From assembly GCF_988242995.1 (NCBI RefSeq), contig NZ_OZ547043.1: DNA of 64,000 bases. The stretch is one strand, 5' to 3'. This document shows positions 23,795 to 58,489 of this stretch, piece after piece. A model generated the notes under the pieces. That model ran no database searches. It was not told the origin of the DNA and saw nothing but the letters and a program-made list of their open reading frames with translations. Within the stretch, counting starts at the first letter, position 1; each line of letters opens with the position of its first letter. A program made the position numbers and the translations under genes.

Positions 23795-23890
23795 ATAAAA
23801 AAATAGAGCCTGTCGACATCCGCCAGACTCTACAGTACACACAGCAGTGCATCCTCGTCTTAAATCCGGCCTGGTCTCCTCTGTGCCGGT
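23795..23890 (-). ncRNA. mcaS: McaS (IsrA) Hfq/CsrA-binding small RNA
   Basis: The reverse complement reads ACCGGCACAGAGGAGACCAGGCCGGATTTAAGACGAGGATGCACTGCTGTGTGTACTGTAGAGTCTGGCGGATGTCGACAGGCTCTATTTTTTTAT. This is close to the McaS sequence I recall. It has GGA motifs, a terminal hairpin and a U-run, and sits in the abgR-smrA spacer. Confidence 0.85.
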
Positions 23891-27267: not shown

Positions 27268-27389
27268 GCAGGTGAATGCAACGTCAAGCGATGGGCGTTG
27301 CGCTCCATATTGTCTTACTTCCTTTTTTGAATTACTGCATAGCACAATTGATTCGTACGACGCCGACTTTGATGAGTCGGCTTTTTTTT
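27268..27389 (+). ncRNA. fnrS: FnrS anaerobically induced Hfq-dependent sRNA
   Basis: GCAGGTGAATGCAACGTCAAGCGATGGGCGTTGCGCTCCATATTGTCTTACTTCC...GCCGACTTTGATGAGTCGGCTTTTTTTT matches my recollection of FnrS. Ends in a terminator hairpin plus T8. Confidence 0.92.
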
Positions 27390-31669: not shown

Positions 31670-31879
31670 TTAATTTGAATACAATGCAATTCTCGAGGAC
31701 TGAAGTTTCTCGCAATTAAAATTTATCAGTTTTACTTTCTGCTCTCTGGAAACGCCTGCTTCTTTTTTACCTGAGAGCATTTTTTCGCATTCTGATTTCG
31801 TTAGTTTAGATTTTGAATATCTTGTCCAGTTAGTAGGAGTGCCACCTTCCTTTTCAATAGTGGCGGTAATTTTATACAT
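31670..31879 (-). CDS. rcbA: Rac small protein RcbA (YdaC)
   Basis: MYKITATIEKEGGTPTNWTRYSKSKLTKSECEKML... (69 aa). Its start overlaps the 3' end of ralR by 8 nt. Confidence 0.8.
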   Translation of the reverse strand: MYKITATIEKEGGTPTNWTRYSKSKLTKSECEKMLSGKKEAGVSREQKVKLINFNCEKLQSSRIALYSN

Positions 31880-35624: not shown

Positions 35625-36337
35625 TTGTGCACAGAAAACCCCCAGCTAGGCTGGGGGTTCCGGAAAGCTTTCAGCTTTGAGCCAGTTATTAAAACCCCTT
35701 TTGATTTGTTAAAACACTTTGCGGTCTGGCAACTGCAAGTGTCAAACAAGAAATCAAAAGGGGGTCCCAATGGGGAACGAAAAGAGCTTAGCGCACACCC
35801 GATGGAACTGTAAATATCACATAGTTTTTGCGCCAAAATACCGAAGACAGGTGTTCTACAGAGAGAAGCGTAGAGCAATAGGCAGTATTTTGAGAAAGCT
35901 GTGTGAGTGGAAAAGCGTACGGATTCTGGAAGCTGAATGCTGTGCAGATTATATCCATATGCTTGTGGAGATCCCGCCCAAAATGAGCGTATCCGGCTTT
36001 ATGGGATATCTGAAAGGGAAAAGCAGTCTGATGCTTTACGAGCAGTTTGGTGATTTGAAATTCAAATACAGGAACAGGGAGTTCTGGTGCAGAGGGTACT
36101 ACGTCGATACAGTGGGTAAGAACACGGCGAAGATACAGGATTACATAAAGCACCAGCTTGAAGAGGATAAAATGGGAGAGCAGTTATCGATTCCCTATCC
36201 GGGCAGCCCGTTTACGGGCCGTAAGTAACGAAGTTGGATGCAAATGTCAGATCGTGTGCGCCTGTTAGGGCGCGGCTGGTAAGAGAGCCTTATAGGCGCA
36301 TTTGAAAAACCTCCGGCTATGCCGGAGGATATTTATT
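35625..36337 (+). mobile_element. IS200-type insertion sequence (IS200/IS605 family), copy 1
   Basis: 713-bp block repeated at 48039-48751 (constant offset 12414; all overlapping ORF-track translations identical). Left-end hairpin AACCCCCAGC-TAG-GCTGGGGGTT (35637-35659), right-end hairpin CCTCCGGC-TAT-GCCGGAGG. No flanking target duplication. Confidence 0.93.
35770..36228 (+). CDS. tnpA: IS200 Y1 (HUH) transposase TnpA
   Basis: MGNEKSLAHTRWNCKYHIVFAPKYRRQVFY...ADYIHMLVEIPPK...YY (152 aa), with HUH-like HMLV and catalytic Tyr context. Confidence 0.93.
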   Translation: MGNEKSLAHTRWNCKYHIVFAPKYRRQVFYREKRRAIGSILRKLCEWKSVRILEAECCADYIHMLVEIPPKMSVSGFMGYLKGKSSLMLYEQFGDLKFKYRNREFWCRGYYVDTVGKNTAKIQDYIKHQLEEDKMGEQLSIPYPGSPFTGRK

Positions 36338-42363: not shown

Positions 42364-42378
42364 TTGCCGGAGGCACCT

Positions 42379-42810
42379 ATGGCAAAAGTATTTACACCAG
42401 AAGAGCGGGAAAAAATTAAAGGGCAGGTTGTTGAACTTGTACGTCTGAGCGGTCGCGAGACGTTACGGGCTCTGGAGGCTAAAACCGGTGCATCAAGGTA
42501 TTACATAAGCACTCTCGCCAGAGAACTGGTCGCCAGTGGTGATGTTTACAATTCAGGCTACGGATTATTCCCGTCTGAGCAGGCTCGTAAGGACTGGCAA
42601 AACGCCCGCAAAAAACTATCCAGGGCAAAGGTGAAAAAAACGGTTGTGGTTGATCCTGACCTTATCTGGTCATTACCAGACGGAGAAATACGCCGCTACG
42701 ACAGGCGCCTGAATATAATCTGTCGCGAGTGCCGGAAAAGCGAAGTTATGCAGCGTGTACTGGCATTTTACCAGAGTAATTTCAGGAGGTTGTCTGGTGA
42801 GCACGATTAA
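42379..42810 (+). CDS. Hypothetical phage protein (143 aa; HTH-like N-terminus, CRECRKS near C-terminus)
   Basis: GGAGGCACCT precedes the ATG at 42379. Translation MAKVFTPEEREKIKGQVVELVRLSGRETLRALEAKTGASRYYISTLAREL.... Last gene of the rightward block before the antisense cassette. Confidence 0.7.
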   Translation: MAKVFTPEEREKIKGQVVELVRLSGRETLRALEAKTGASRYYISTLARELVASGDVYNSGYGLFPSEQARKDWQNARKKLSRAKVKKTVVVDPDLIWSLPDGEIRRYDRRLNIICRECRKSEVMQRVLAFYQSNFRRLSGEHD

Positions 42811-42835
42811 CTACTAGGGGGGATAACAATAAAAT

Positions 42836-42855
42836 AAAGCCTCCTAGGAGGCTTT
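42836..42855. terminator. Perfect 20-nt palindrome; bidirectional terminator at the cassette boundary
   Basis: AAAGCCTCCTAGGAGGCTTT has an 8-bp stem and a CTAG loop. It overlaps the MTase stop codon (TAG). A T-rich tract follows on the minus strand. Confidence 0.7.
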
Positions 42856-43884
42856 GATTATATTAAGCAAATGTTTTCCAATCGTTTCAGACATCTTCGG
42901 AGGGACCGCATTTCCTATTTGACGAGCCCGAGATTGCAAAGAACCAATAAATTTATAATCCAAAGGAAATGTTTGTAGACACGCTGCTTCACGAACCGAT
43001 ATTGCTCGATTTTGTGTTGGATGTCCAAAACGTCCATTTGAATAGCTAATACAACGAGTTGTTAGTCCGCTGGCTGGTTTGTCCCAACTCAAACGTCCAT
43101 ATACGTCTGTATGCCCTTTATGGTTACGATGGCATTCTAAAATCAATTCATCTGGCCAAAATTCTCGACTTCCACCTTCAGGAGTGCATTTTATTCTACG
43201 TAAATTAAGCTCTGATAAGCGTGCAGCTTCATGATCAGGAATACTATTATGCTTTTCTCCTGCTTCTATCTTCGGTAAATTAGCGATCCAGTCCTTTACT
43301 GTTGAATAGGGAGTATTTCCAACCCCATGTGTAGGAGAAGGCAATGCGACATAAAAATCCTTGGATGCAATGAGCACTAATCTTTCTCGCGTCTGTGGTA
43401 CACCGTACCACGCAGCTGGCATTACTTTATAATCTACACTATATCCCTTTGATGAAAGCATTTCTAAAAACATCATGAATGTTCCTTCATTTTTGTTAAA
43501 CTTTTGCATTCCTGGCACGTTTTCAACAAAAATAAAATCAGGCATATAATGCTCTACAAAGCGACTGAATTCCTTTAATAGATCTAATCGTGGATCATCA
43601 TTTTTCTTATTTGAGTTTTGCTTAGAGTACGGTTGACAAGGCGCACATCCTGAAAAAAGAATGTAATCATTACGATGTTTTTTTACTAACTTGTTTATGG
43701 CATTGTTGTCGATTAACCTAATGTCCGAGTTAATAAAAGCAGCCTGCGGGAAATTTGCACGAAATGAACTGGCTGCATCAACGTCGAAATCGAGGCCAAA
43801 AACAATATCCATTCCAGCTTGATGGAAACCTTGGCTGGTTCCACCACAACCGGAAAAGAAGTCAAACACTTTGATTTTTTTCAT
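42844..43884 (-). CDS. DNA (cytosine-5) methyltransferase
   Basis: All canonical C5-MTase motifs occur in order: I FDFFSGCGG, IV GCAPCQPYS, VI FVENVPG, VIII QTRERLVLIA, IX REAACLQTFP, X GNAVPP. The best start is ATG 43884 with GAGGG upstream. The track ORF uses GTG 43908. Confidence 0.9.
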   Translation of the reverse strand: MKKIKVFDFFSGCGGTSQGFHQAGMDIVFGLDFDVDAASSFRANFPQAAFINSDIRLIDNNAINKLVKKHRNDYILFSGCAPCQPYSKQNSNKKNDDPRLDLLKEFSRFVEHYMPDFIFVENVPGMQKFNKNEGTFMMFLEMLSSKGYSVDYKVMPAAWYGVPQTRERLVLIASKDFYVALPSPTHGVGNTPYSTVKDWIANLPKIEAGEKHNSIPDHEAARLSELNLRRIKCTPEGGSREFWPDELILECHRNHKGHTDVYGRLSWDKPASGLTTRCISYSNGRFGHPTQNRAISVREAACLQTFPLDYKFIGSLQSRARQIGNAVPPKMSETIGKHLLNIIKAS

Positions 43885-43907
43885 TTTTCCCTCTGCATCC
43901 AGAATCA

Positions 43908-45737
43908 CTACCTAATGATACCACGGTCAAGAGCCTGAGTAATTATTTTTCTTATTTTTATAAATTCAGGCAATTCATTTTTAAGTCTTGCGGTCATCAT
44001 TTGTTGGAGGCAAAAAATTTCCTCTGCATTTACTTCTTCTTTATCATACAGGTGTTGCGCTAATAATCTTATTTGATTCTTATACAGTTCTGGATCATTA
44101 GAACTCCAGGTCTGTGAATCAATTATTTCTTTTTCACTTGGCGTAATTGCCTTTTCAATGAGTAATTGTTCGGGAGTATCAAATGGTAAATACTTCACTT
44201 TATTGAATGCATACTCAAGCACTTGCCTTTTGAGTCTATTAGATTCTTGTTCATTTTTTTTGCCATTACTACCACTGGCATTGATAATTAACTCGCAACC
44301 ATAATATTTGCACATTGTATTAACTAAATCAGCATCAGCAATTTCACTAATTCTTACTGGTTTTATTTTTTTGTTTTTATCACCATCAAGTAAAAACAAA
44401 ATATCATTGCGTTCTACCACAGCGTAACTGGGAAGATGCTTGCTTAAAATGGTCTCCGAACCACCTGGTATATAACTTACACTAAATGATAAGCTTAATC
44501 TTTCATCATTTTTAATCGCTTTATCTATAATTGCTTTAGCTAATTTATCTTCTACAATTATTGTTTTCTTGTTAATATCATGCCCTAGCTCTATAAAAGC
44601 TTCATCCGGTGCTATATTTTGAACTATTTTAGCTGTTTCACTCTCTTCATCAAAAACAAATAATTTAATGGCATCTTTGGGAAGAGTGTTCACAATAACA
44701 GGAGAATGGGTTGATATTACCACTTGATGTTTTTTCTGCTCAACAATAGAGTACAGAACATCCATCATCCTTTTTTGTGCACCAGGGTGAAGTGAAACTT
44801 CTGGTTCGTCAAGAAGAATTAATGAATTAGGTTTGGCCGAATAAATATTGAGTATTAGTGAAACTATTGCAAATTCACCACTTCCAGCAAACGCTTCTGT
44901 ATAGTTCAACTTATCAGTTGAAAGTAAAGCGGTTCCTCCTCTGGTTCCAAATAACCGATGCTCAAGAAATTTAATGACTTTATATTTTTTCCCTAATATA
45001 AATGAGACGTGCTCAACTAGTTCTGGCGCCAAGGTTATATTTTTAACAATGGTTTCCGCCCCCCAGAGTCTTAAATTACTTAGCTTTTCATCAAAAGCTT
45101 TCTTTATATATTTAGATTTGCTTCTGATATAGTCTTGCTTTGTAATTAATACACCACTCTTCTTCTTTCTTAATTTAAAATCAGAGTGATACATACATCT
45201 ATCAAATGCACTTATTTCCGATCTGAAATCTAGGAAAACCAATCCCTTCTTGATTTTTTTCCATCTGGTTGCATTACTATTAGCACCCAGATCATCCGAA
45301 ATACTCTCCATGTTATCACCAACAGATGGTCGACTTGTTTCCCAATAATCGATTGTTTTCTTGGTAGCATTGATACGTGCTTGGAGTATTTCAACTAAAC
45401 GGCCATCAGCATTTTTATATCCATATATATATCTAGGTTTAAGAGAACTGCCATCAGCAAGTTTTAGGTCAGGAAACTCATCTGTTTCAGTTGTGAACCA
45501 ATAACGAGTTATATTTTTACCATGTGGGCAACCAAATAGCGCTTTGATAACAGAACTTTTATTAGTTCCATTTTTTCCTACTAAAGCCGTTATAGGGAAC
45601 TGAAAATCGATCCTTGCATTCTGCTCTATATTTTTAAAGTATGGAAAACGGATATGTTGTATGAATGGTTCAAATTCACCGTTTTTTAACGCGCACTGGA
45701 GTGTTCGAATTTTGCTCTTGTATGCGGAAGTGCTCAT
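43908..45737 (-). CDS. OLD-like ABC-type ATPase with C-terminal Toprim/DUF4435-like region (609 aa)
   Basis: Walker A-like VGKNGTNKSS (aa 53-62), SGE signature (286-288), Walker B LILLDEPE then SLHP (306-318), H-loop STHSP (342-346), then IIVED (393-397) and LLDGD (449-453). Very AT-rich. Confidence 0.8.
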   Translation of the reverse strand: MSTSAYKSKIRTLQCALKNGEFEPFIQHIRFPYFKNIEQNARIDFQFPITALVGKNGTNKSSVIKALFGCPHGKNITRYWFTTETDEFPDLKLADGSSLKPRYIYGYKNADGRLVEILQARINATKKTIDYWETSRPSVGDNMESISDDLGANSNATRWKKIKKGLVFLDFRSEISAFDRCMYHSDFKLRKKKSGVLITKQDYIRSKSKYIKKAFDEKLSNLRLWGAETIVKNITLAPELVEHVSFILGKKYKVIKFLEHRLFGTRGGTALLSTDKLNYTEAFAGSGEFAIVSLILNIYSAKPNSLILLDEPEVSLHPGAQKRMMDVLYSIVEQKKHQVVISTHSPVIVNTLPKDAIKLFVFDEESETAKIVQNIAPDEAFIELGHDINKKTIIVEDKLAKAIIDKAIKNDERLSLSFSVSYIPGGSETILSKHLPSYAVVERNDILFLLDGDKNKKIKPVRISEIADADLVNTMCKYYGCELIINASGSNGKKNEQESNRLKRQVLEYAFNKVKYLPFDTPEQLLIEKAITPSEKEIIDSQTWSSNDPELYKNQIRLLAQHLYDKEEVNAEEIFCLQQMMTARLKNELPEFIKIRKIITQALDRGIIR

Positions 45738-45885
45738 TGTTTACTAAAGTCCATAATAGGCTATTAACAGGTTGAGGATGACATGATAACGATTTTTAAT
45801 GCAGATAAAAGAGGTTTGTTGGTTAGCACACAACAGAAAAAGTGACCTTACCGCTTGAACGAAAGGTAAGGGTAAGTAGGCTGTG

Positions 45886-46038
45886 ATGCAGCAAAAGACG
45901 ATGTTAATCGCCCTGATTGTCATCTGTATTACCGTCGTTGTGATGGCACTGGTAACAAGGAAAGACTTCTGCGAGGTACAAATCCGAACCGGTCAGACGG
46001 AGGTCGCTGTCTTCACAGCTTACGAACCTGAGGAGTGA
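45886..46038 (+). CDS. hok: Hok/Gef-family type I toxin (50 aa)
   Basis: Hand translation gives MQQKTMLIALIVICITVVVMALVTRKDFCEVQIRTGQTEVAVFTAYEPEE, closely resembling my recollection of HokD/RelF. A downstream fbi-type hairpin GGCGAGGGA-GAAA-TCCCTCGCC lies at 46046-46067. Below the ORF-track cut-off. Confidence 0.88.
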   Translation: MQQKTMLIALIVICITVVVMALVTRKDFCEVQIRTGQTEVAVFTAYEPEE

Positions 46039-46144
46039 GAGACCAGGCGAGGGAGAAATCCCTCGCCACCTCTGATGAGTCAGGCATCCTCAACGCACCC
46101 GCACTTAACCAACTTTGGCGGGTATATTTTATCTGTGAATATTT

Positions 46145-46231
46145 TTATAAAAATAATGCCCACGCACAGCATAAAACAAAAAGTATTACAGATAAAAAAG
46201 GAACGTAATGTGCAGATTTGTTGTTTTCCAT
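46145..46231 (-). CDS. Possible 28-aa hydrophobic peptide
   Basis: AAGGTGAG lies 6 nt before the ATG (46231). Translation MENNKSAHYVPFLSVILFVLCCAWALFL has a polar head and one TM-length hydrophobic tail. No recognised homology. Confidence 0.3.
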   Translation of the reverse strand: MENNKSAHYVPFLSVILFVLCCAWALFL

Positions 46232-46503
46232 ATTTACTCACCTTAATATGATTAACCCTAATAGGGTTGTTATTTCAGCGGTTTTCAAATGAGATATTAT
46301 GGTGATCTGGCAGATTTGCATAACATTAAAATTTAATTTGTTTAACCGCTTTTAATAATAAGCGTTGTTTGTATCCCAGCAATCTGTTGTTTGGTTTTTA
46401 TTCCATTAAGGTGGGGCTTTACACTGGAGCCAGTTTATTTATACTTCATACGTCAGCCTGAACAACTGGCATCTGCTGCGCTGCGCCATCGAGAGATTAA
46501 GAA

Positions 46504-47103
46504 ATGGCGCATATACAACTGGTCAAACAAACCTCTTCCGGATTACTTCTCCCGGCGACGCCGGAGAGTTGTGATTTTCTGCATCAAATCAAAATAGGCG
46601 AGTGGATACACGCAGACTTTAAGCGTGTGCGTAACTACGCATTCCACAAGCGTTTTTTCAAACTCCTGCAACTGGGATTCGATTACTGGACTCCGGTCGG
46701 TGGGGCGATCACGCCTCGCGAACGAGAACAGCTGTCTGGTTTCGTTGATTACCTGTGCGAATCAGTTGGTCGGGAACACACGCCAGCCCTGAGTGATGCC
46801 GCAGAGCAATATCTGAATACAGTTGCGACACGCAGAACCCGGGATACGGCATTGCTAAAGTCGTTTGAGGCTTTTCGCGAGTGGGTAACCATTCAGGCTG
46901 GATTTTACACCGAACATTTTTATCCGGACGGTAGCCGCGGGCGTCGGGCAAAATCTATCGCTTTTGCGAATATGGACGAAACCGAGTTTCAGCAGGTTTA
47001 TAAATCTGTTCTGAATGTGCTGTGGAACTGGATTCTGTTCCGTAAATTTTCCTCTCCGGAACAAGTCGAAAATGTGGCCGCGCAGCTGCTGGAGTTTGCG
47101 TAA
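46504..47103 (+). CDS. nin-region phage protein (DUF1367-like, YbcN-position)
   Basis: 199 aa, MAHIQLVKQTSSGLLLPATPESCDFLHQIKIGEWIHADFKRVRNYAFHKRFF.... ATGG overlap with the next gene. Assigned by resemblance to lambdoid nin-region proteins. Confidence 0.7.
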   Translation: MAHIQLVKQTSSGLLLPATPESCDFLHQIKIGEWIHADFKRVRNYAFHKRFFKLLQLGFDYWTPVGGAITPREREQLSGFVDYLCESVGREHTPALSDAAEQYLNTVATRRTRDTALLKSFEAFREWVTIQAGFYTEHFYPDGSRGRRAKSIAFANMDETEFQQVYKSVLNVLWNWILFRKFSSPEQVENVAAQLLEFA

Positions 47104-48015: not shown

Positions 48016-48040
48016 AACCCGCCATTGAGCGGGTTTTGTT
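48016..48040 (+). terminator. tR'-like intrinsic terminator downstream of Q
   Basis: AACCCGC-CATTGA-GCGGGTT followed by TTGTT. The IS200 copy-2 left end starts at or within its T-tract. Confidence 0.65.
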
Positions 48041-48751
48041 GTGCACAGAAAACCCCCAGCTAGGCTGGGGGTTCCGGAAAGCTTTCAGCTTTGAGCCAGT
48101 TATTAAAACCCCTTTTGATTTGTTAAAACACTTTGCGGTCTGGCAACTGCAAGTGTCAAACAAGAAATCAAAAGGGGGTCCCAATGGGGAACGAAAAGAG
48201 CTTAGCGCACACCCGATGGAACTGTAAATATCACATAGTTTTTGCGCCAAAATACCGAAGACAGGTGTTCTACAGAGAGAAGCGTAGAGCAATAGGCAGT
48301 ATTTTGAGAAAGCTGTGTGAGTGGAAAAGCGTACGGATTCTGGAAGCTGAATGCTGTGCAGATTATATCCATATGCTTGTGGAGATCCCGCCCAAAATGA
48401 GCGTATCCGGCTTTATGGGATATCTGAAAGGGAAAAGCAGTCTGATGCTTTACGAGCAGTTTGGTGATTTGAAATTCAAATACAGGAACAGGGAGTTCTG
48501 GTGCAGAGGGTACTACGTCGATACAGTGGGTAAGAACACGGCGAAGATACAGGATTACATAAAGCACCAGCTTGAAGAGGATAAAATGGGAGAGCAGTTA
48601 TCGATTCCCTATCCGGGCAGCCCGTTTACGGGCCGTAAGTAACGAAGTTGGATGCAAATGTCAGATCGTGTGCGCCTGTTAGGGCGCGGCTGGTAAGAGA
48701 GCCTTATAGGCGCATTTGAAAAACCTCCGGCTATGCCGGAGGATATTTATT
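48039..48751 (+). mobile_element. IS200-type insertion sequence, copy 2
   Basis: Identical block to 35625-36337, in the same orientation. Inserted between the Q/tR' region and the lysis region. Confidence 0.93.
48184..48642 (+). CDS. tnpA: IS200 Y1 transposase TnpA (copy 2)
   Basis: Same 152-aa product as copy 1. Confidence 0.93.
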   Translation: MGNEKSLAHTRWNCKYHIVFAPKYRRQVFYREKRRAIGSILRKLCEWKSVRILEAECCADYIHMLVEIPPKMSVSGFMGYLKGKSSLMLYEQFGDLKFKYRNREFWCRGYYVDTVGKNTAKIQDYIKHQLEEDKMGEQLSIPYPGSPFTGRK

Positions 48752-51064: not shown

Positions 51065-51201
51065 AATCTTAACTACAATATGATTCATTTTGATGATTGT
51101 TTCATAAGGAACAGTGAAGTAAGATCTAAGAGGAGTTAAATTTTATACAGTATAATCATAATATTGCAGCAAGGTGGTTATAATTGAAAGAATATTTAGA
51201 T

Positions 51202-52659
51202 ATGAATACATCTCATGTAAGAGTTGTTACTCATATGTGTGGGTTCCTGGTTTGGCTCTATAGTCTTTCAATGTTGCCACCAATGGTTGTAGCATTGTTT
51301 TATAAAGAAAAAAGCCTGTTTGTTTTCTTTATAACTTTCGTTATATTTTTTTGCATTGGTGGCGGAGCGTGGTATACAACTAAGAAATCTGGCATTCAAT
51401 TACGTACCCGTGATGGGTTTATTATAATTGTAATGTTTTGGATTTTGTTTTCTGTTATTAGTGCATTCCCTTTATGGATTGACTCAGAACTTAATTTAAC
51501 GTTCATTGATGCTCTGTTTGAAGGGGTTTCTGGAATAACAACAACAGGAGCAACTGTAATTGATGATGTTAGTTCATTACCTCGGGCATATTTGTACTAT
51601 CGGTCACAGTTAAATTTTATAGGTGGTTTAGGAGTTATTGTTCTGGCGGTTGCTGTATTGCCATTATTGGGTATTGGTGGTGCAAAGCTTTATCAGTCAG
51701 AAATGCCGGGGCCATTTAAGGATGACAAACTCACTCCCCGCCTGGCCGATACGTCACGGACACTGTGGATAACTTATTCTTTATTAGGTATTGCTTGTAT
51801 TGTCTGTTATAGACTTGCAGGAATGCCTTTGTTTGATGCTATTTGTCACGGGATTTCCACAGTTTCGCTTGGTGGTTTCTCAACTCATAGCGAGAGTATC
51901 GGATATTTTAATAACTATTTGGTTGAGCTGGTGGCTGGTTCTTTTTCCCTGCTATCGGCTTTCAACTTCACTCTTTGGTATATTGTTATTAGCAGGAAAA
52001 CGATAAAACCTTTAATCAGAGATATTGAACTTCGTTTCTTTCTGTTAATAGCCTTAGGTGTGATCATTGTTACCTCTTTCCAGGTCTGGCATATAGGTAT
52101 GTATGACTTGCATGGAAGTTTTATTCATTCGTTTTTTCTTGCCAGCTCCATGCTCACTGATAATGGTTTAGCTACGCAGGATTATGCAAGTTGGCCCACG
52201 CACACGATAGTGTTTTTGCTGTTGTCAAGTTTCTTTGGGGGATGTATAGGTTCAACTTGTGGTGGAATTAAGTCACTTCGATTTCTTATACTTTTCAAAC
52301 AAAGCAAACACGAGATAAATCAGCTTTCTCATCCCAGAGCGTTGTTGAGTGTAAATGTAGGAGGGAAGATAGTTACAGATCGTGTAATGAGGTCTGTATG
52401 GAGTTTCTTTTTTCTTTATACTCTCTTCACGGTGTTTTTTATACTGGTGTTAAATGGTATGGGATATGATTTTCTTACATCATTTGCAACAGTGGCTGCA
52501 TGCATTAATAATATGGGATTAGGTTTTGGGGCTACTGCATCGTCATTCGGAGTGCTTAATGACATTGCAAAATGTTTAATGTGCATAGCTATGATTCTTG
52601 GTCGCCTTGAAATTTATCCTGTTATTATATTGTTTTCAGGTTTTTTTTGGCGCTCCTAA
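51202..52659 (+). CDS. trkG: TrkG K+ uptake protein (prophage moron)
   Basis: MNTSHVRVVTHMCGFLVWLYSLSMLPPMVVALFYKEK... (485 aa from the internal ATG). Polytopic, AT-rich. Confidence 0.94.
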   Translation: MNTSHVRVVTHMCGFLVWLYSLSMLPPMVVALFYKEKSLFVFFITFVIFFCIGGGAWYTTKKSGIQLRTRDGFIIIVMFWILFSVISAFPLWIDSELNLTFIDALFEGVSGITTTGATVIDDVSSLPRAYLYYRSQLNFIGGLGVIVLAVAVLPLLGIGGAKLYQSEMPGPFKDDKLTPRLADTSRTLWITYSLLGIACIVCYRLAGMPLFDAICHGISTVSLGGFSTHSESIGYFNNYLVELVAGSFSLLSAFNFTLWYIVISRKTIKPLIRDIELRFFLLIALGVIIVTSFQVWHIGMYDLHGSFIHSFFLASSMLTDNGLATQDYASWPTHTIVFLLLSSFFGGCIGSTCGGIKSLRFLILFKQSKHEINQLSHPRALLSVNVGGKIVTDRVMRSVWSFFFLYTLFTVFFILVLNGMGYDFLTSFATVAACINNMGLGFGATASSFGVLNDIAKCLMCIAMILGRLEIYPVIILFSGFFWRS

Positions 52660-52796
52660 TATATGGCTGATTTATAATTGTGAGTTTAATATTATGTTGA
52701 CTCACTCATTGATCCAATACCTAACTTTACCAGCAACACCTCCGTCCCCAGTAGCACTGGCTGCTGGGGTGCGTTTTATTCATAAAGCAAGGCTGT

Positions 52797-53588
52797 ATGA
52801 GCGAGAAATTAAAGATAGTCTATCGCCCATTACAAGAATTGTCACCGTATGCGCACAACGCCAGGACGCACAGTACTGAGCAGGTGGCACAACTGGTAGA
52901 AAGTATTAAGCAATTCGGCTGGACTAATCCGGTGCTGATTGACGAAAAGGGCGAAATTATTGCGGGTCACGGTCGTGTTATGGCGGCTGAAATGCTCAAA
53001 ATGGATTCTGTTCCGGTCATTGTTCTGTCTGGCCTGACGGATGAGCAGAAAAAGGCGTACCGCCTGGCAGATAATCGCCTGCCGATGAATGCTGGCTGGG
53101 ATGAAGATCTGTTGCGGATGGAGCTGTCGGACCTAATCAATGCTGATTTTGATGTCTCCCTGACAGGCTTCATCCCGACAGAAATTGATGAACTGTTGAC
53201 GGATGTTTTGCCCGGTACAGGAAATGAGGAGGAGCCGTATACGACGAAAATTGATACGCCTGTTTATGAGCCGTCGGGCGGTAAACCGGATATCAGTGAA
53301 CTGTACGACGATACGAAAACTCAGGAGCTGATCAGCCGGATACGTTCGGCGTCCCTTGAGCCTGATATTGAGAAATTCCTCCTGTGTGCGGCAGAACGTC
53401 ACACGGTGTTTAATTTCAGCAGAATTGCGGACTATTACGCTCACGCCCCCTCTGAAATTCAGTGTTTTTTCGAGGAGTCGGCGCTGGTGATCATTGATTA
53501 TCAGCAGGCTATTGAAAATGGATTTGTCCGGATGACGCAGCGCATGGTGGAGATCATGCATGGTGGTGAGGAGGAGGAATATGCGTGA
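52797..53588 (+). CDS. ynaK: ParB/Srx-like N-terminal-domain protein, full-length YnaK-type (263 aa)
   Basis: MSEKLKIVYRPLQELSPYAHNARTHSTEQVAQLVESIKQFGWTNPVLIDEKGEIIAGHGRVMAA...AYRLADNRL has ParB-like GHGR and ADN motifs. I recall K-12 YnaK as only the N-terminal ~87 aa. Confidence 0.85.
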   Translation: MSEKLKIVYRPLQELSPYAHNARTHSTEQVAQLVESIKQFGWTNPVLIDEKGEIIAGHGRVMAAEMLKMDSVPVIVLSGLTDEQKKAYRLADNRLPMNAGWDEDLLRMELSDLINADFDVSLTGFIPTEIDELLTDVLPGTGNEEEPYTTKIDTPVYEPSGGKPDISELYDDTKTQELISRIRSASLEPDIEKFLLCAAERHTVFNFSRIADYYAHAPSEIQCFFEESALVIIDYQQAIENGFVRMTQRMVEIMHGGEEEEYA

Positions 53589-54513
53589 TGATTTTTGCGC
53601 CTTTATTCTGACTCACGGGCGACCGGACAAAGTTCTGACTTACCGGACGTTGCGTCGTGCTGGCTATACCGGGAAAATTTTTATCGTTGTTGATGATGAA
53701 GATAAGACACGGCATCAGTACATGGCTGAATTTGGTGAACAGGTGCTGGTGTTTTCCAAAGCCGATATCGCCAGTCGTTTTGACGAAGCCGATAATTTCT
53801 GTGACCGCCGCTCAATTTTTTACGCCCGTAATGCCTGTTTCGACCTGGCAAAACTGGTCGGGTGTAAATACTTCATTCAGCTCGATGATGATTATCACGA
53901 GTTCCAGTTTCGGGTGGATCGCAACTATGACCAGGCCTATTTTCCGATAAGGAAACTGGATGCGATCCTTTCTGAAATGCTGGCGTACTACGAATCAATA
54001 CCTGCTCTTTCCATCGCTATGTCGCAGGGCGGGGATTTTCTTGGTGACAATGGCGGCCATGCTTCGTGGGTGAAACGCAAGGCAATGAACAGCTTTATCT
54101 GTTCGGTTGATCGACCGTTCTCATTCATGGGGCGCATTAACGAGGATGTGAATACGTACACGAATCTCGGTCGCTGTGGTGAATTGTTTATGACGATCGG
54201 TGCTGTCCAGTTAGGGCAGAAACAGACGCAGAAAAACAGCGGCGGAATGACCGAGCTGTATCTGGATTCCGGAACCTACGTTAAAAGTTTTTACTCCGTC
54301 ATGTATGCGCCGTCGTGCGTAAAAATTTCACTGATGGGTGCCAGCCATAAACGCATTCACCATCAGGTCACCTGGAACAACGCTGCAGTAAAAATCCTTC
54401 ACGAAAAATACAGGAAGAAGACACCCTGCATATCAATGGGGGTGACAAATGATTCCGTATTCGAAAGTCGAGTCTCTGGCAGCGTGCCGGATGACTGCAC
54501 AACAAATCGCTGA
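53581..54513 (+). CDS. Hypothetical protein with GT-A glycosyltransferase-like signatures (310 aa)
   Basis: GGAGGAGG lies before ATG 53581, which overlaps the ynaK-like stop by 8 nt. Signatures are an N-terminal FILTHGRPDKVLTYRTLRRAG strand-helix, VVDDED, the DxD-like QLDDDYHEF, and RINEDVNTY. The fold assignment is an inference from these motifs only. Confidence 0.6.
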   Translation: MRDDFCAFILTHGRPDKVLTYRTLRRAGYTGKIFIVVDDEDKTRHQYMAEFGEQVLVFSKADIASRFDEADNFCDRRSIFYARNACFDLAKLVGCKYFIQLDDDYHEFQFRVDRNYDQAYFPIRKLDAILSEMLAYYESIPALSIAMSQGGDFLGDNGGHASWVKRKAMNSFICSVDRPFSFMGRINEDVNTYTNLGRCGELFMTIGAVQLGQKQTQKNSGGMTELYLDSGTYVKSFYSVMYAPSCVKISLMGASHKRIHHQVTWNNAAVKILHEKYRKKTPCISMGVTNDSVFESRVSGSVPDDCTTNR

Positions 54514-54700
54514 CGTTCTGGATGTTGATCTGAACCGACTGAAAGAAAATCGGGAAGCAATGACAGATTTTTATGCGGCCATCCGTAAGGGCAGAGCGAA
54601 AGGTGAAGCCGAGTTACGAGCGGCATTGTTTAAGCTTGCCAGAAAAGGGGATGCCTTTGCTCTGCGCGAACTACTCAGGGTGGATAAAAATCAGGACTAA
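54449..54700 (+). CDS. Small HTH protein upstream of terminase (83 aa)
   Basis: MIPYSKVESLAACRMTAQQIADVLDVDLNRLKENREAM... has an HTH-like segment. The 5' end overlaps the previous ORF by 65 nt, so the start is uncertain. Confidence 0.5.
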   Translation: MIPYSKVESLAACRMTAQQIADVLDVDLNRLKENREAMTDFYAAIRKGRAKGEAELRAALFKLARKGDAFALRELLRVDKNQD

Positions 54701-54703
54701 CTG

Positions 54704-55798
54704 ATGAGCAGACCGGACTGGGGGGCGTTGCAGCAGGAGTATATTGCTGAATACACCCGCTCCGGTATATCTCCGGTGGCATGGTGTGAAGCAAGGGGAC
54801 TGAATTACGCAACAGCCCGTCGTTACATCAAAAAAACTCCGAAAAATGCGCAGACAGAAATGTGCAAAACTGCGCAAAAAAGTGCGCAGAAAAAATCTGC
54901 GCAGACTGCACAAAAGCGGAACGAAAAATCTCAGGAAAAAAAGCCAGTATTCGATGCGGGCCTGAATGAGGGCGACGCGGAGGAATTTTCGTTCTGTCCC
55001 GATGAATTCGGCATTTCTGACCAGCAGGCTAAGTTTGCGATGCTTGTTGCTCAGGGTAAAAAGCCGACAGAGGCGTACCGACTAGCCGGTTATGAGGGGC
55101 AAGGTGCGACAGCTAACAGCAACGCCAGTCGTATGCTTAGAAATGCCAGGGTTTTTCGCGCTATCAGCTACTTCCGCAATCAGTACCAGAAACGCTATAC
55201 CGCAGACCTGGATTTACTAGTGAGTCAGTTGATGGCTATTGTCCTGGCCGACCCCAATCAGCTTGCACAATTTCGCCGTGTTAACTGCCGTTATTGCTGG
55301 GGCGAGAATCATCTCTACCAGTGGCGCGATATAGCAGAATTCGACAAGGCAGCGGCGCAGGCTTCCAGAGATGGCAAACCCGAACCGGAATATGGAGGCC
55401 TCGGCTTTGTTGATAACGCCATACCCAATCCGGACTGCCCGAAGTGCTGCGGTGAGGGAACGGGACAGCTTTATATGGCTGATACCACTCTGCTTGATGG
55501 GGATGCGCGGCAATTATATGCAGGGGCAAAATTCGGAAAATTCGGCGTTGAGATCCTGCTGGAGGATAAGGCTGCCGCCCGGCGTGAATTGTTGCGTTTG
55601 TTTTCTGCTGGCGGGGCTTTATGTGCAGATAAACGGCTACAGGAACTGGAAATTGAACGGCGCAGAATGGAAAACCAGAAGCTGCGCAAAGAGATCGAAA
55701 CGGTGGAAGATAATGAACATCCCCAGCCTGTGGCGATCAATATTAATGTGGTTGATGCCAGAGTAAGGAGTGATGAAGATGATCTCTCCGACGCTTAA
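54704..55798 (+). CDS. Terminase small subunit (Terminase_2-like core with N-terminal HTH extension)
   Basis: 364 aa. The core QQAKFAMLVAQGKKPTEAYRLAGYEGQGATANSNASRMLRNARVFRAI is typical of small terminases. Confidence 0.8.
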   Translation: MSRPDWGALQQEYIAEYTRSGISPVAWCEARGLNYATARRYIKKTPKNAQTEMCKTAQKSAQKKSAQTAQKRNEKSQEKKPVFDAGLNEGDAEEFSFCPDEFGISDQQAKFAMLVAQGKKPTEAYRLAGYEGQGATANSNASRMLRNARVFRAISYFRNQYQKRYTADLDLLVSQLMAIVLADPNQLAQFRRVNCRYCWGENHLYQWRDIAEFDKAAAQASRDGKPEPEYGGLGFVDNAIPNPDCPKCCGEGTGQLYMADTTLLDGDARQLYAGAKFGKFGVEILLEDKAAARRELLRLFSAGGALCADKRLQELEIERRRMENQKLRKEIETVEDNEHPQPVAININVVDARVRSDEDDLSDA

Positions 55799-57080
55799 TG
55801 TGCCTCAGGCGCGATTTCTTTCAATGCCCCATAAATTTAAAGCCTATATTGCTGGTTTTGGCTCGGGCAAAACATGGGTTGGGTGTAGCGGCATATGCAA
55901 GGGGATTTGGGAGCATCCAGGTATAAATCAGGGATATTTTGCGCCAACGTATCCCCAAATTCGCGATATTTTTTACCCTACAGTGGAAGAAGTTGCTGCT
56001 GACTGGGGATTGAACGTAAAAATTAATGAGGGAAATAAAGAGGTTCACTTTTATTACGGACGCCAGTATCGGGGAACCACTATCTGCAGATCGATGGAGA
56101 AGCCACAAACGATCGTCGGTTTCAAAATTGGTAATGCGTTGGTGGATGAACTGGACATTTTGCCGAAGGAAAAAGCCAGAACGGCGTGGCGCAAGATAAT
56201 TGCACGTATGCGTTATAAGATTGATGGACTTCGCAACGGTATTGACGTTACAACCACGCCGGAAGGATTCAAATTTGTCTACGAGCAGTTTGTTAAAGCC
56301 GTGCGTGAAAAAACAGAGCTGGCCTCACTGTATGGTCTGGTGCAGGCATCTACTTTCGATAATGAAAAGAACCTGCCAGCAGATTACATTCCTTCGCTTC
56401 TTGAATCATACCCTCCAGAGCTGATTAAAGCCTATCTTCGAGGACAGTTTACTAACCTGACAAGTGGTACTGTTTACCATCAGTTTGACCGGAAACTGAA
56501 TAATTGCGAAGAAGTGGAGCAGCCAGGGGAGCCGATTTATATTGGGATGGATTTTAACGTTGGAAAGATGGCGGGAATCGTCCATGTGCTGCGTTTGGGG
56601 CTTCCATGTGCGGTAACTGAAATCATCAATGCCTACGATACGCCGGATATGATCCGCATCATTAAAGAACGCTTCTGGCTGTATGATGGGAATGATTACC
56701 GGAAAGTGAGGGAAATTTATATTTATCCAGATGCTTCCGGGGATTCCAGAAAATCAAGTAACGCAAGTACGACGGATATAGCCCAGCTTAAGCAGGCTGG
56801 TTTTAACGTTGTGGTGAACAGCTCGAACCCGCCAGTAAAAGATCGCGTTAACTCAATGAATGCAATGTTCTGCAATGCCAATGGTGAGCGTCGCTATAAA
56901 GTTAATGTGAAGCGTTGCCCGTTATATGCCGAATCTCTGGAGCAACAGGTCTGGGATGAGAAGGGGGAGCCTGATAAAAAATCTGGCAATGATCACCCGA
57001 ATGATGCCGGAGGTTATTTCATCGTTAAGCAATTCCCTATTGTCAAACCGACCGGAAGAGTCACATCACTTCGGATTTAA
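55779..57080 (+). CDS. Terminase large subunit
   Basis: About 433 aa with Walker A-like AGFGSGKTW. AAGGAG lies 8 nt before ATG 55779 (alternative starts at 55770 and 55773). Position fits. Confidence 0.8.
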   Translation: MISPTLNVPQARFLSMPHKFKAYIAGFGSGKTWVGCSGICKGIWEHPGINQGYFAPTYPQIRDIFYPTVEEVAADWGLNVKINEGNKEVHFYYGRQYRGTTICRSMEKPQTIVGFKIGNALVDELDILPKEKARTAWRKIIARMRYKIDGLRNGIDVTTTPEGFKFVYEQFVKAVREKTELASLYGLVQASTFDNEKNLPADYIPSLLESYPPELIKAYLRGQFTNLTSGTVYHQFDRKLNNCEEVEQPGEPIYIGMDFNVGKMAGIVHVLRLGLPCAVTEIINAYDTPDMIRIIKERFWLYDGNDYRKVREIYIYPDASGDSRKSSNASTTDIAQLKQAGFNVVVNSSNPPVKDRVNSMNAMFCNANGERRYKVNVKRCPLYAESLEQQVWDEKGEPDKKSGNDHPNDAGGYFIVKQFPIVKPTGRVTSLRI

Positions 57081-57082
57081 TT

Positions 57083-58489
57083 ATGGCTGATATATCAACA
57101 CCCAACCTCGACTATAACGATATGCTGGAGGCGTGGGATATTAACGACGCACTGATGGGCGGTACGCTTGAAATGCGCAGGCAGGGGGAAAATTATCTCC
57201 CAAAATGGCCTAACGAAGATGAAGACGCTTATAAAAAACGCCTGTCTGTGGCTACGCTACTTCCTGTGTATGAAGAAAGCATCAAGCAAAATATTGGGCG
57301 CATATTTGCAGAGCCGACAGTATTGAGTGAGGAAACGCCGGCAAAAATCAGGGAATATGCAGAAAATATCGACATGGAGGGGAGCCGACTGGATGTGTGG
57401 GCGCAGCAATTTTTCAGCCTCGCATTTCAGTATGGTGTGGCACATGCGCTGGTGGACTATCCACGAACGGATATGAAAGAGATTCGGACAAAAGCCGATG
57501 AAAACGCGACCGGTGGTCGTCCGTACGTTACGATGCTGAATCCACGCCAGGTTATTGGATGGAAATCGAAAGTTGAAAAAGGGAAAGTTGTTCTCACTGA
57601 TTTGCGTATAAAAGAGGTCATCATTATTGATGGTGATGATTTCGGGCAGAAGAAGGTGGAGCAGATCCGCCATATTATGCCCCGTCGAGTTGAAATTTAT
57701 CGACGTAGCGAAGGCACTAATGGCGAATCTGTCTGGACGCTTCATGAGTCATGGAATACCAGCCGTGATGATATTCCTCTGGTAACACTGTACACGAAGA
57801 AAACAGGATTTATGCGTGGTACACCGCCATTGCTTAATCTTGGCTTGCTGAATATCAAGCACTGGCAAAGCCAGAGCGAGCAGGACAATATTCTTCATGT
57901 TGCCCGCGTTCCATTGCTGGTGGCCTACGGGCTGGACAGGAATGAAGAACTGACGGTTGGTGCATCCACCGCTACGATTTTTGAGGACAGAACAAAAAAT
58001 GGCCTCGAATATGTTGAACATAGTGGCGCAGCGATAGAATCTGGCGAAACATCACTTGAGAAGCTGGAAAATCAGATGCGTCATGCCGGCGCTAAACTTC
58101 TGCGTGCTGAAAATACATCCACCAAATCTGTTGATCAGACTAATGAAGAGCGAATGCAGGAAAACTCGCCGCTTTATACAATGGCGAACTCCCTCGAAGA
58201 TGCTCTCGATAATATTCTCCAGATAATGGCGGAATGGATCGGAGAGAGTTGCGGTGGCAATGTGGATGTGCGCACTGAACTGGATGTATCTGCCCAGGTG
58301 TTTGACTCATCCTCCGCGCTGGCTGTTCAGTCATTGCGTCAGGGCGGTGATATACGTCAGATTGATGCGGTTCGGGTGTTGCAGGCGTTGAAATTTATCG
58401 ATCAGGATTCCCGTCCAGAGGAAGTGATCGATGAATTAAAAAATCAGAGTGTAATGCTGATGGAAATCAATGATGCAAACCGTGAATGA
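57083..58489 (+). CDS. Portal protein (putative)
   Basis: 468-aa ORF immediately after the large terminase. Size and order are typical of a portal. Confidence 0.7.
   Translation: MADISTPNLDYNDMLEAWDINDALMGGTLEMRRQGENYLPKWPNEDEDAYKKRLSVATLLPVYEESIKQNIGRIFAEPTVLSEETPAKIREYAENIDMEGSRLDVWAQQFFSLAFQYGVAHALVDYPRTDMKEIRTKADENATGGRPYVTMLNPRQVIGWKSKVEKGKVVLTDLRIKEVIIIDGDDFGQKKVEQIRHIMPRRVEIYRRSEGTNGESVWTLHESWNTSRDDIPLVTLYTKKTGFMRGTPPLLNLGLLNIKHWQSQSEQDNILHVARVPLLVAYGLDRNEELTVGASTATIFEDRTKNGLEYVEHSGAAIESGETSLEKLENQMRHAGAKLLRAENTSTKSVDQTNEERMQENSPLYTMANSLEDALDNILQIMAEWIGESCGGNVDVRTELDVSAQVFDSSSALAVQSLRQGGDIRQIDAVRVLQALKFIDQDSRPEEVIDELKNQSVMLMEINDANRE

What the first reader, a model, noticed from the sequence alone, without database searches (positions are those of the whole stretch)
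42811..46503. Accessory island inserted antisense between the replication module and the nin/Q genes, insulated by a palindromic terminator
Seen: the rightward early operon (ydaS...42810) and its continuation (46504 onward: DUF1367-like, YbcO-like, Q) are interrupted by about 3.7 kb. This stretch has clearly lower G+C and contains the ATPase/MTase pair (minus strand), a divergent hok locus (plus strand) and a possible 28-aa peptide gene (minus strand). The left edge is the perfect palindrome AAAGCCTCCTAGGAGGCTTT at 42836-42855. Inference: PR transcription must cross this terminator, run head-on into the cassette, and pass the hok terminator region before reaching Q. In a lysogen the cassette can be expressed from its own promoter. 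On induction, PR read-through would be antisense to the cassette. The island may therefore both delay Q expression and be silenced during lytic growth. In established lambdoid biology this position (replication-nin junction) is a common moron/defence slot. From memory, the K-12 Rac remnant is deleted from within ydaW onward, so this region is not represented there.
Basis: partly seen in the sequence, partly recalled or inferred. Interest (0 to 1): 0.55.

Follow-up and report, generated by a model that had tools for sequence, protein, structure and literature searches.

The report
Nuclease–methylase defence cassette in Rac prophage
A 3-kb foreign cassette encoding an OLD-type ATP-dependent nuclease and a cytosine DNA methylase sits in a highly variable cargo slot of a Rac-like E. 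coli prophage; the slot is ordinary, but I found no description of this widely conserved nuclease–methylase pairing.

Summary
However, the 3.7-kb "island" has two parts. Only about 42814-45856 (3.04 kb, 35.9% G+C against 49% in the flanks) is variable cargo. The hok gene, the AT-rich spacer and the 28-aa ORF (45857-46503) belong to the conserved Rac backbone.

The cargo is a self-contained unit with four parts: an 84-bp 5' region, an OLD-family ABC-ATPase/Toprim nuclease (609 aa), an m5C methyltransferase (346 aa) and its own palindromic terminator. It occurs in 31 of 5426 complete E. coli genomes, and 1040 genomes carry the flanking module. All 13 other sampled Rac loci hold different cargo, in either orientation.

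The ATPase-methylase pair is conserved across bacterial phyla. In 59 of 76 informative species loci the two genes are directly adjacent on one strand. The four published OLD classes do not include this pairing. The most likely function is a methylation-coupled, restriction-modification-like defence.

The cargo replaced the hok leader, so sok, mok and the native promoter are gone, as in K-12 relBE-hokD.

The cargo-slot idea is supported. The ideas of terminator insulation, delayed Q expression and antisense silencing remain untested. The terminator belongs to the cassette, not to the slot.

The parts
42364..42810 (+). DUF977 / Ren-like gene, the last gene of the early-right replication module. 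The left recombination breakpoints fall in its last ~40 nt.
   Evidence: PF06163 E 5e-27; phrog_142 Ren-like E 1e-44; breakpoints 42770-42813
42814..45856 (-). The variable cargo proper (3.04 kb, 35.9% G+C). The core 42836-45821 is 82% identical to a cassette in Citrobacter portucalensis.
   Evidence: whole cargo in 31/5426 E. coli genomes
42836..42855 (.). Perfect 20-nt palindrome, the cassette's intrinsic terminator. The MTase TAG stop (42844-42846) is in the loop. It can act in both directions but has the better U-tract on the minus strand.
   Evidence: RNA fold -13.8 kcal/mol (minus, z -3.9) and -12.6 (plus, z -3.1); same palindrome at the end of the Citrobacter cassette, L010 7883-7902
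42844..43884 (-). DNA cytosine-5 methyltransferase, 346 aa from the ATG (the ORF extends to a GTG at 43908). Motifs FSGCGG, PCQ, ENV, QTRER and GNAVPP are present.
   Evidence: PF00145 E 5e-61; TIGR00675 above cutoff; PADLOC MTase_II 1e-96; motif and TRD conservation
43908..45737 (-). OLD-family nuclease: N-terminal ABC ATPase (Walker A G54-S61, D310/E311, H344) fused to a C-terminal Toprim domain (E396/D397, D451-G-D453) plus a helical tail.
   Evidence: AAA_21/AAA_15; invariant residues in 35 homologues and in 78 of 80 species loci, with the other two alignments stopping short of the DxD motif; AF2 model pLDDT 83.6; Foldseek top hits TsOLD 6p74 (2.4e-13) and GajA; PADLOC HEC-04 1.5e-34, partial
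45738..45821 (-). Cassette 5' region conserved with the Citrobacter copy. It presumably holds the cassette promoter (a -10-like TATCAT, no good -35).
   Evidence: homology ends at 45821; no site of 9/12 or better, so the promoter is inferred, not shown
45857..45882 (+). The last ~26 nt of the hok leader, all that remains. The translation-initiation region carries clustered changes (AAGGAGAAGCAGGCTATGAAG -> AAGGGTAAGTAGGCTGTGATG).
   Evidence: alignments; sok model absent but present in six other-cargo loci
45883..46038 (+). hok (HokD-like) toxin ORF, 51 aa, part of the backbone. It has no sok, mok or native promoter.
   Evidence: PF01848 E 1e-21; hokD-like DNA in ~4700 genomes; G+C 49.4%
46046..46123 (+). 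hok mRNA 3' structures: hairpin 46046-46067 and a terminator-like hairpin 46097-46123 followed by AUAUUUUAU.
   Evidence: conserved in other-cargo loci
46145..46231 (-). Conserved 28-aa hydrophobic small ORF (MENNKSAHYVPFLSVILFVLCCAWALFL) with the Shine-Dalgarno sequence AAGGTGAG. It is backbone and unannotated.
   Evidence: frame, length, start and stop are kept in copies whose ORF+SD stretch is 79% identical while the adjacent 154 nt are 63-64% identical; no family hit
46418..46445 (+). Promoter-like TTTACA-16-TATACT inside a 100-bp block (46401-46503) that is conserved upstream of ninB.
   Evidence: function not shown
46504..47103 (+). DUF1367 / NinB-like gene, the first gene of the nin-Q module (followed by YbcO at 47103 and the DUF1133 Q-like gene at 47390).
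   Evidence: PF07105 1e-95; phrog_319 NinB

Best explanation
The junction between the Ren-like DUF977 gene and the hok-ninB module of Rac-type lambdoid prophages is a hypervariable cargo slot. In this window the slot holds a 3.0-kb horizontally acquired operon on the opposite strand.

I infer that the two proteins work together as a methylation-coupled, restriction-modification-like defence. The methylase would mark resident DNA (chromosome and prophage) at a fixed motif. The ATP-dependent OLD nuclease would attack incoming DNA that lacks the mark. As with other R-M modules, loss of the cassette would be penalised, so it would also stabilise the prophage.

The recombination that brought the cassette in removed the hok leader. 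That left an antitoxin-less, promoter-less hok with a weakened translation start.

Shown: the anatomy, the breakpoints, the variability of the slot, the catalytic motifs, the fold, the conserved gene pairing and the loss of sok. Inferred: the joint function, methylation sensitivity of the nuclease, expression in the lysogen and any effect on Q timing.
For: - Slot variability: 31 of 5426 genomes carry the cargo and 1040 carry the flanking module. All 13 other sampled loci differ.
- Foreign origin: G+C 35.9% against 49%, GC3 26-29%.
- Mobile unit: 82% identity to Citrobacter over window 45821-42836, including the palindrome.
- OLD identity: invariant Walker A/B, H-loop and Toprim E and DxD. Top Foldseek hits are TsOLD and GajA. 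A related ATPase-TOPRIM protein, HEC-04, gave experimental phage defence that needed both active sites and was toxic when induced (10.1101/2024.01.29.577857).
- Pairing: 6 of 6 homologues at 38-83% identity have the MTase immediately downstream in unrelated contexts. Among 76 informative loci from different species and several phyla, 59 have a same-strand C5-MTase directly adjacent and 10 more have one within 1-2.1 kb.
- MTase integrity: all catalytic motifs are intact and the target-recognition region is highly conserved.
- Terminator.
- hok truncation.
Against: - No experiment shows that the nuclease is methylation-sensitive. Characterised OLD nucleases are non-specific, nicking or tRNA-directed.
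- Six of 76 family members have intact catalytic residues but no C5-MTase within 4 kb. Two of them have histidine-kinase/receiver partners instead. The nuclease is therefore not obligately lethal without this methylase.
- The MTase target-recognition region barely varies across the family, unlike the diversifying specificities of many R-M families.
- The methylated motif is unknown.
- No convincing promoter was found for the cassette. AT-rich foreign DNA in E. coli is often silenced by H-NS (established knowledge).
- PADLOC gives no named system, only partial matches.
Confidence: 0.6

Rival explanations
1. The island's main role is to shape prophage transcription. The palindromic terminator and the head-on cassette delay PR read-through into nin/Q. 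On induction, read-through produces antisense RNA that silences the cassette.
For: - The cassette is convergent with the early operon, and the hairpin sits 25 nt after the DUF977 stop.
- Q lies downstream with no annotated intervening promoter, so read-through is expected by analogy with lambda tR2-tR4 (established knowledge).
- Antisense 'noncontiguous operons' switch a prophage defence on and off in S. aureus 80alpha (PMC11087260).
- This prophage has terminase and portal genes, so lytic growth is conceivable.
Against: - The terminator belongs to the cassette, not the slot.
- Two of three other antisense cargos have no terminator-like site there.
- Cargo lies wholly on the plus strand in at least five of the 13 other sampled loci.
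- The plus-strand U-tract is weak (8 of 14).
- The same cassette family occurs outside phages, so its function does not depend on this context.
- No transcript data exist.
Confidence: 0.2
2. There are two independent functions. The ATPase-Toprim protein acts alone as an abortive-infection OLD/HEC-04-type defence. The methylase is an orphan enzyme that protects phage DNA from the restriction enzymes of new hosts, or tunes gene expression.
For: - Class 1 OLD proteins and HEC-04 defend as single proteins (PMC10568477, PMC12392090).
- Six of 76 family members lack the methylase.
- Phage-borne orphan C5 methylases are common (phrog_116).
Against: - The genes are adjacent on the same strand with 0-40 bp spacing in 59 of 76 species loci across phyla, most of them not in prophages.
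- The pair moves as one unit with a single terminator.
Confidence: 0.15
3. A guard model. The OLD nuclease monitors the methylase or S-adenosylmethionine (SAM) supply. It fires, as abortive infection, when a phage inhibits methylation, for example with a SAM-degrading enzyme or a DNA mimic. This would resemble PARIS sensing the anti-restriction protein Ocr.
For: - ABC-ATPase/Toprim systems such as PARIS and Gabija are triggered by anti-restriction proteins (discussion; PMC11464382 abstract).
- The methylase is much more conserved (55-65% identity) than the ATPase (36-41%), as expected for a guarded, invariant bait.
Against: This is purely inferential. No interaction data exist, and the conserved target-recognition region is equally explained by a fixed DNA motif.
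Confidence: 0.05

Closest known systems
OLD-family nucleases (P2 Old, Thermus scotoductus OLD 6p74, Gabija GajA; classes 1-4)
   Same: The architecture is an N-terminal ABC ATPase plus a C-terminal Toprim domain. The catalytic residues are invariant. The best structural matches are TsOLD and GajA.
   Different: The conserved partner is a C5 DNA methyltransferase. It is not 'no partner' (class 1), a UvrD-like helicase (class 2), a retron RT/ncRNA (class 3) or a split AriA/AriB pair (class 4). Sequence identity to solved OLDs is only 12-14%.
HEC-04 (PADLOC candidate; single-protein ATPase-TOPRIM defence, Payne et al. 2024 preprint)
   Same: It is the best PADLOC hit (E 1.5e-34). It is also an ABC ATPase fused to Toprim, with experimentally shown defence that needs both active sites.
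   Different: The hit covers only residues 232-459 of 609 (profile positions 160-383 of 494). HEC-04 is a single gene embedded in Hma systems, whereas this family is 100 aa longer and linked to a methylase.
Type II restriction-modification systems with C5 methylases
   Same: It is a two-gene mobile unit with a complete m5C methylase and an adjacent nuclease, and it has a patchy distribution.
   Different: The nuclease is an ATPase-Toprim protein, not a PD-(D/E)XK, HNH, PLD or GIY-YIG enzyme. An automatic 'M.HgiDII' label sits on a 63%-identical relative, but R.HgiDII is a GHKL-domain protein (PMC2441816), so the partner differs.
Prophage defence/moron hotspots (P2 old/tin and P4 hotspots; lambdoid morons)
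   Same: The position is fixed between conserved genes, the cargo differs between close relatives, the composition is foreign and the cargo has its own terminator (PMC9122126 listed).
   Different: This particular slot (Ren-like | hok-ninB of Rac-type phages) was not found described in the papers searched. That search was limited.
K-12 Qin relBE-hokD
   Same: A foreign cassette abuts hok a few tens of nucleotides before its start codon, and the sok/mok leader is missing. There is no RF01794 hit in either case.
   Different: There the cargo is relBE, co-oriented with hokD. Here the cargo is divergent, and the hok Shine-Dalgarno sequence and start codon are additionally mutated.

Membership tests
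OLD-family nuclease | N-terminal ABC-type ATPase with Walker A, Walker B, signature motif and H-loop | tested here: met
   AAA_21/AAA_15/SMC_N hits. G54, G57, K60, S61, S286-G-E288, D310, E311 and H344 are invariant in 35 homologues.
OLD-family nuclease | C-terminal Toprim domain with a conserved glutamate and a DxD metal-binding motif | tested here: met
   E396/D397 and D451-G-D453 are invariant. They are conserved in 78 of 80 species loci; the other two alignments stop short of the DxD.
OLD-family nuclease | Overall fold like solved OLD proteins | tested here: met
   Foldseek against the PDB ranks 6p74 TsOLD first (E 2.4e-13) and GajA second to fourth. TM-scores are only 0.36-0.44, probably because of domain orientation. 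Model pLDDT is 83.6.
OLD-family nuclease | Metal-dependent nuclease activity regulated by ATP | not testable with these tools
   Needs biochemistry.
OLD class 1 (stand-alone gene) | No conserved neighbouring partner gene | tested here: not met
   A same-strand C5-MTase is directly adjacent in 59 of 76 loci and within 2.1 kb in 69 of 76.
OLD class 2 (Gabija) | A UvrD/PcrA-like helicase gene (gajB) immediately downstream | tested here: not met
   The downstream gene is PF00145 DNA_methylase.
OLD class 3 (retron effector) | Adjacent reverse transcriptase and msr/msd ncRNA | tested here: not met
   There is no RT ORF and no retron RNA in 42-46.5 kb.
OLD class 4 (PARIS) | Separate AriA ATPase and AriB DUF4435 Toprim proteins | tested here: not met
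   The Toprim domain is fused and there is no DUF4435 gene. A real AAA+DUF4435 pair occupies the same slot in strain HYM1.
HEC-04 (PADLOC) | Full-length match to the HEC-04 profile; single-gene system | tested here: inconclusive
   E 1.5e-34, but the match covers only profile positions 160-383 of 494, and the family has a conserved partner gene.
Type II R-M system | Active-looking C5 methyltransferase (motifs I, IV, VI, VIII, X) | tested here: met
   FSGCGG, PCQ, ENV, QTRER and GNAVPP are invariant. PF00145 covers 1-322 of 324.
Type II R-M system | A cognate endonuclease whose cleavage is blocked by that methylation | not testable with these tools
   Only genetic linkage is shown.
[quoted passage not shown] | Hok toxin ORF | tested here: met
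   PF01848 E 1e-21.
[quoted passage not shown] | Sok antisense RNA, mok frame and structured hok leader upstream of hok | tested here: not met
   RF01794 is absent at E<=1 in the window but present at 105-120 bits in six other-cargo loci. No mok-like ORF of 25 aa or more overlaps hok. Homology starts 21-26 nt before hok.
Moron (Hendrix/Juhala sense) | Present or absent between close relatives, with deviant composition | tested here: met
Moron (Hendrix/Juhala sense) | Own terminator | tested here: met
   A hairpin plus U-tract on the cassette strand, conserved in Citrobacter. This is a prediction only.
Moron (Hendrix/Juhala sense) | Own promoter active in the lysogen | tested here: inconclusive
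   The 84-bp upstream block is conserved, but no sigma-70 match of 9/12 or better was found.

The most novel reading that the evidence does not exclude
The ATPase-Toprim protein and its dedicated m5C methylase form an undescribed fifth context class of OLD-family systems. In it, an ATP-dependent, Toprim-based restriction enzyme is held in check epigenetically. The module is conserved as a mobile two-gene unit from Enterobacteria to Actinobacteria, Bacteroidota and Firmicutes.
Probability: 0.4. Interest if true: 0.7.

Novelty: new variant of a known kind. Interest (0 to 1): 0.5.

Why it matters
- It maps a defence/moron hotspot in Rac-type prophages at base resolution. The slot is found in about one fifth of complete E. 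coli genomes and could be mined for new systems.
- OLD-family nucleases are currently sorted into four genetic contexts. A widespread fifth context, with a DNA methylase partner, would link the OLD and Gabija world to restriction-modification. It would also give a tractable model for how an otherwise non-specific OLD nuclease tells self from non-self.
- The cargo exchange that stripped hok of its antitoxin repeats what happened at K-12 relBE-hokD. This suggests that the hok leader is a recurrent recombination breakpoint.

Tried and rejected
- Named defence systems. PADLOC gave only partial or generic hits: HEC-04, retron ATPase-Toprim, AriA, PtuA and GajA for the ATPase, and MTase_II, DruM and DrmMII for the methylase. 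Gabija, Septu, PARIS, Druantia and DISARM were rejected because their partner genes are absent from the slot.
- NCBIfam. All ATPase hits fall far below the curated cutoffs.
- HgiDII R-M system. An automatic 'M.HgiDII' name sits on a 63%-identical relative. R.HgiDII is a GHKL protein, so it is not the same system, and GTCGAC specificity remains only a lead. GTCGAC occurs 8 times in the window, which is uninformative.
- Phage genomes. No INPHARED record holds the cargo DNA or an ATPase homologue at E<=1e-20.
- Literature. Searches for an OLD or Toprim nuclease together with a cytosine methyltransferase found no description of the pair. The Krishnan et al. 2020 ABC-ATPase survey could not be read, so prior mention there or in REBASE cannot be excluded.
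- A constitutive promoter upstream of ninB (46418-46445). This was considered as a way round read-through. I judge it unlikely, because it would express Q in the lysogen. I kept it only as a noted conserved element.
- Terminators at the same edge in other antisense cargos. One was found in L002; none was found in L004 or L005.
- Codon-position test for the 28-aa ORF. The third-position bias is only weak (2:7:9), so this is suggestive and not decisive.

Full report
**1. Observation.** The window around the finding is a Rac-type prophage. An identical region in strain FORC 064 is annotated recE, racC, kilR, sieB, racR, ydaS, ydaT, ydaU, ydaV, DUF1627, DUF977, then the cassette, then hok, DUF1367, DUF1364 and DUF1133.

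- The 20-nt perfect palindrome lies at 42836-42855.
- A C5-methyltransferase ORF lies at 42844-43908 on the minus strand. PGAP starts it at the ATG at 43884.
- A 609-aa ATPase lies at 43908-45737 on the minus strand.
- A Hok/Gef ORF lies at 45883-46038 on the plus strand.
- A 28-aa ORF lies at 46145-46231 on the minus strand.

Composition shifts sharply. G+C is 35.9% in 42814-45856, against 49.2% upstream and 49.1% downstream. GC3 is 26-29%, against 46-60%.

**2. Boundaries.** I compared the region with six Rac loci that carry other cargo. Homology ends at 42770-42813 and resumes at 45857-45862 (alignments). The variable unit is therefore about 3.04 kb, not 3.7 kb. The hok CDS (49.4% G+C), its 3' hairpins, the AT-rich 380-bp spacer and the 28-aa ORF are backbone. 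They accompany every other cargo that retains hok. Hok-like DNA matches about 4700 of 5426 genomes, whereas the whole island matches 31.

**3. The slot.**
- Frequency: 1040 genomes carry the DUF1627-DUF977 module at 80% coverage or more, and 31 of them carry this cargo.
- Diversity: thirteen other sampled loci all differ. They hold two hypothetical proteins; beta+sce7726; AAA+DUF4435 (PARIS-like); nucleotidyltransferase+SLATT; QueH; Ea22-like plus two hypothetical proteins; KilA-N; another cytosine methylase plus O-methyltransferase plus ATPase; many small genes; a Q-like gene plus a nucleoid-associated protein; HTH proteins; TetR-amidohydrolase-SIR2; and ATPase+STAS.
- Orientation: two-gene defence-like cargos are often antisense. 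Cargo lies wholly on the plus strand in at least five of these loci.
- Position: DUF977 matches Ren-like proteins and DUF1367 matches NinB. The slot therefore corresponds to the lambda ren | nin junction.
- K-12: K-12-like Rac remnants match only the first 501 nt of the DUF1627 gene and then jump to lysis genes (H142-144). This confirms that the region is missing from K-12.

**4. The cassette is a mobile unit.** An 82%-identical copy in Citrobacter portucalensis aligns from window 45821 to 42836. That span covers 84 bp upstream of the ATPase start, both genes and the palindrome. In Citrobacter the cassette lies next to a prophage integrase.

The MTase TAG stop sits in the centre of the palindrome. 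On the cassette strand the hairpin (-13.8 kcal/mol, z -3.9) is followed by UUUAUUUUAUUGUU. On the plus strand (-12.6 kcal/mol) it is followed by UUUGAUUAUAUUAA. It is thus the cassette's own terminator, possibly acting in both directions. Two of three other antisense cargos show no terminator-like site at this edge.

**5. The ATPase is an OLD-family nuclease.**
- Pfam gives AAA_21, AAA_15 and SMC_N.
- In 35 homologues the Walker A motif (GxNGTNKSS), signature motif, Walker B D310/E311, H344 and the Toprim residues E396/D397 and D451-G-D453 are invariant.
- An AlphaFold model (pLDDT 83.6) matches Thermus scotoductus OLD best (6p74, E 2.4e-13), then GajA.
- The best PADLOC profile is HEC-04 (E 1.5e-34, partial coverage). 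HEC-04 is an ATPase-TOPRIM fusion shown experimentally to defend against phage. That defence needed both active sites, and the protein was toxic when induced (preprint 10.1101/2024.01.29.577857).

**6. The methylase.** It has a full PF00145 match and passes the TIGR00675 cutoff. All catalytic motifs are present, and the target-recognition region is strikingly conserved across relatives at 60-78% identity. Its target sequence is unknown.

**7. The pairing is conserved.**
- Six of six ATPase homologues at 38-83% identity have the methylase immediately downstream, in unrelated contexts. They come from Citrobacter, Serratia, Yersinia, another E. coli lambdoid slot between Q and holin, Bradyrhizobium and Microbulbifer.
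- A scan of one genome per species returned 80 loci from Proteobacteria, Actinobacteria, Bacteroidota, Firmicutes, Acidobacteria and others.
- Of the 76 informative loci, 43 have a same-strand C5-MTase directly downstream and 16 have one directly upstream.
- Ten more have one 1-2.1 kb upstream, one has a more distant one on the other strand, and six have none.
- The six without a methylase keep all catalytic residues. Two of them have HEF_HK and receiver-domain partners instead.

The published OLD classification has four classes: solitary, Gabija, retron and PARIS (PMC10568477; PMC12392090). None has a methylase partner, and my literature searches found no description of one. The search was limited. 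REBASE and one key survey could not be consulted.

**8. hok.**
- The Rfam sok/leader model RF01794 lies directly upstream of hok in all six other-cargo loci.
- It is absent from the window, from L008 (same cargo) and from K-12 Qin relBE-hokD.
- Only about 26 nt of the leader remain. Within them and the start codon there is a cluster of changes (AAGGAG to AAGGGT, ATG to GTG), shared by all carriers examined. This is consistent with weakened translation of a toxin that has lost its antitoxin, but that reading is an inference.
- The window's Hok differs from canonical HokD at 7 of 51 residues.
- For context, intact hokW-sokW at the analogous place in Sp5 assists lysis after induction (PMC8621323).

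**9. How it most likely works.** The cassette is most likely a methylation-coupled, R-M-like defence module carried as prophage cargo. The methylase would mark resident DNA and the OLD nuclease would attack unmarked incoming DNA. Its addictive character would also stabilise the prophage and would functionally replace the lost hok/sok. I put confidence at about 0.6.

The rivals are:
- independent functions for the two genes (0.15);
- a guard model in which the nuclease senses inhibition of methylation (0.05).

A constitutive promoter before ninB would express Q in lysogens, so the conserved TTTACA-16-TATACT at 46418-46445 is probably not one. Nothing here tests termination, delay or antisense silencing.

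**10. Verdict.** This is a real, well-delimited cargo cassette in a hypervariable prophage slot. As a phenomenon it is ordinary. Its content is a widespread OLD-nuclease/m5C-methylase pair that appears to be uncharacterised, which makes it a new variant of a known kind. Interest is 0.5.

Noticed in passing
window 35625-36337 and 48039-48751: Two identical 713-bp IS200 copies lie in the same orientation, each with the STnc490 RNA. They bracket 12.4 kb that holds the immunity, replication, cargo, hok, nin and Q genes. The second copy sits between Q and the lysis genes. It is missing from the five best-matching of 5426 E. coli genomes, which cover 91% of the query in two pieces. It could be polar on late transcription, or allow deletion of the whole segment.
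   Followed up: partly
window 46145-46231 (-): There is an unannotated 28-aa hydrophobic ORF with a strong Shine-Dalgarno sequence (AAGGTGAG). Frame, length, start and stop are kept in copies whose ORF+SD stretch is 79% identical while the adjacent 154 nt are only 63-64% identical (L100, L101; also L102). This suggests a real small membrane protein of the ninB-upstream backbone.
   Followed up: partly
window 46401-46503: A 100-bp block just upstream of ninB is 87-88% conserved even where neighbouring sequence is 63-64% identical. It contains a small hairpin and a promoter-like TTTACA-16-TATACT. Its function is unknown.
   Followed up: partly
L013-L015 (other E. coli lambdoid prophages), locus 5001-7835: A paralogous OLD-methylase cassette (ATPase 39% identical, listed in 520 blocks of the assembly collection) lies between the Q gene and the holin. 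The methylase stop is only 10 bp from the convergent Q stop. The same system type therefore uses a second lambdoid moron slot.
   Followed up: partly
L004 1770-3928; L005 1739-3687; L108 7980-11053: In other strains the same Rac slot holds a PARIS-like AAA+DUF4435 pair, a SLATT+nucleotidyltransferase pair, or a TetR-amidohydrolase-NTP pyrophosphatase-SIR2 cluster. The slot could be mined for defence systems.
   Followed up: no
L096 198-5740 and L097 108-5779 (Bacteroidota): Members of the same ATPase-Toprim family lie in an operon with HEF_HK histidine-kinase-like and Response_reg_2 proteins instead of a methylase.
   Followed up: no
window 31695-31873 (+); 27268-27385 (+); 23795-23890 (-): There are Rfam hits for RalA (antitoxin of the Rac RalR toxin), FnrS and McaS. 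The last two mark the chromosomal flank to the left of the prophage.
   Followed up: no
window 51184-58489: Unlike K-12 and FORC 064 Rac remnants, this prophage has ParB-like, terminase and further large ORFs in the terminase region after trkG. It may be more complete.
   Followed up: no
L009 7880-8100 (Citrobacter portucalensis): In a second Citrobacter strain an IS1 insertion interrupts the cassette's terminal palindrome.
   Followed up: no
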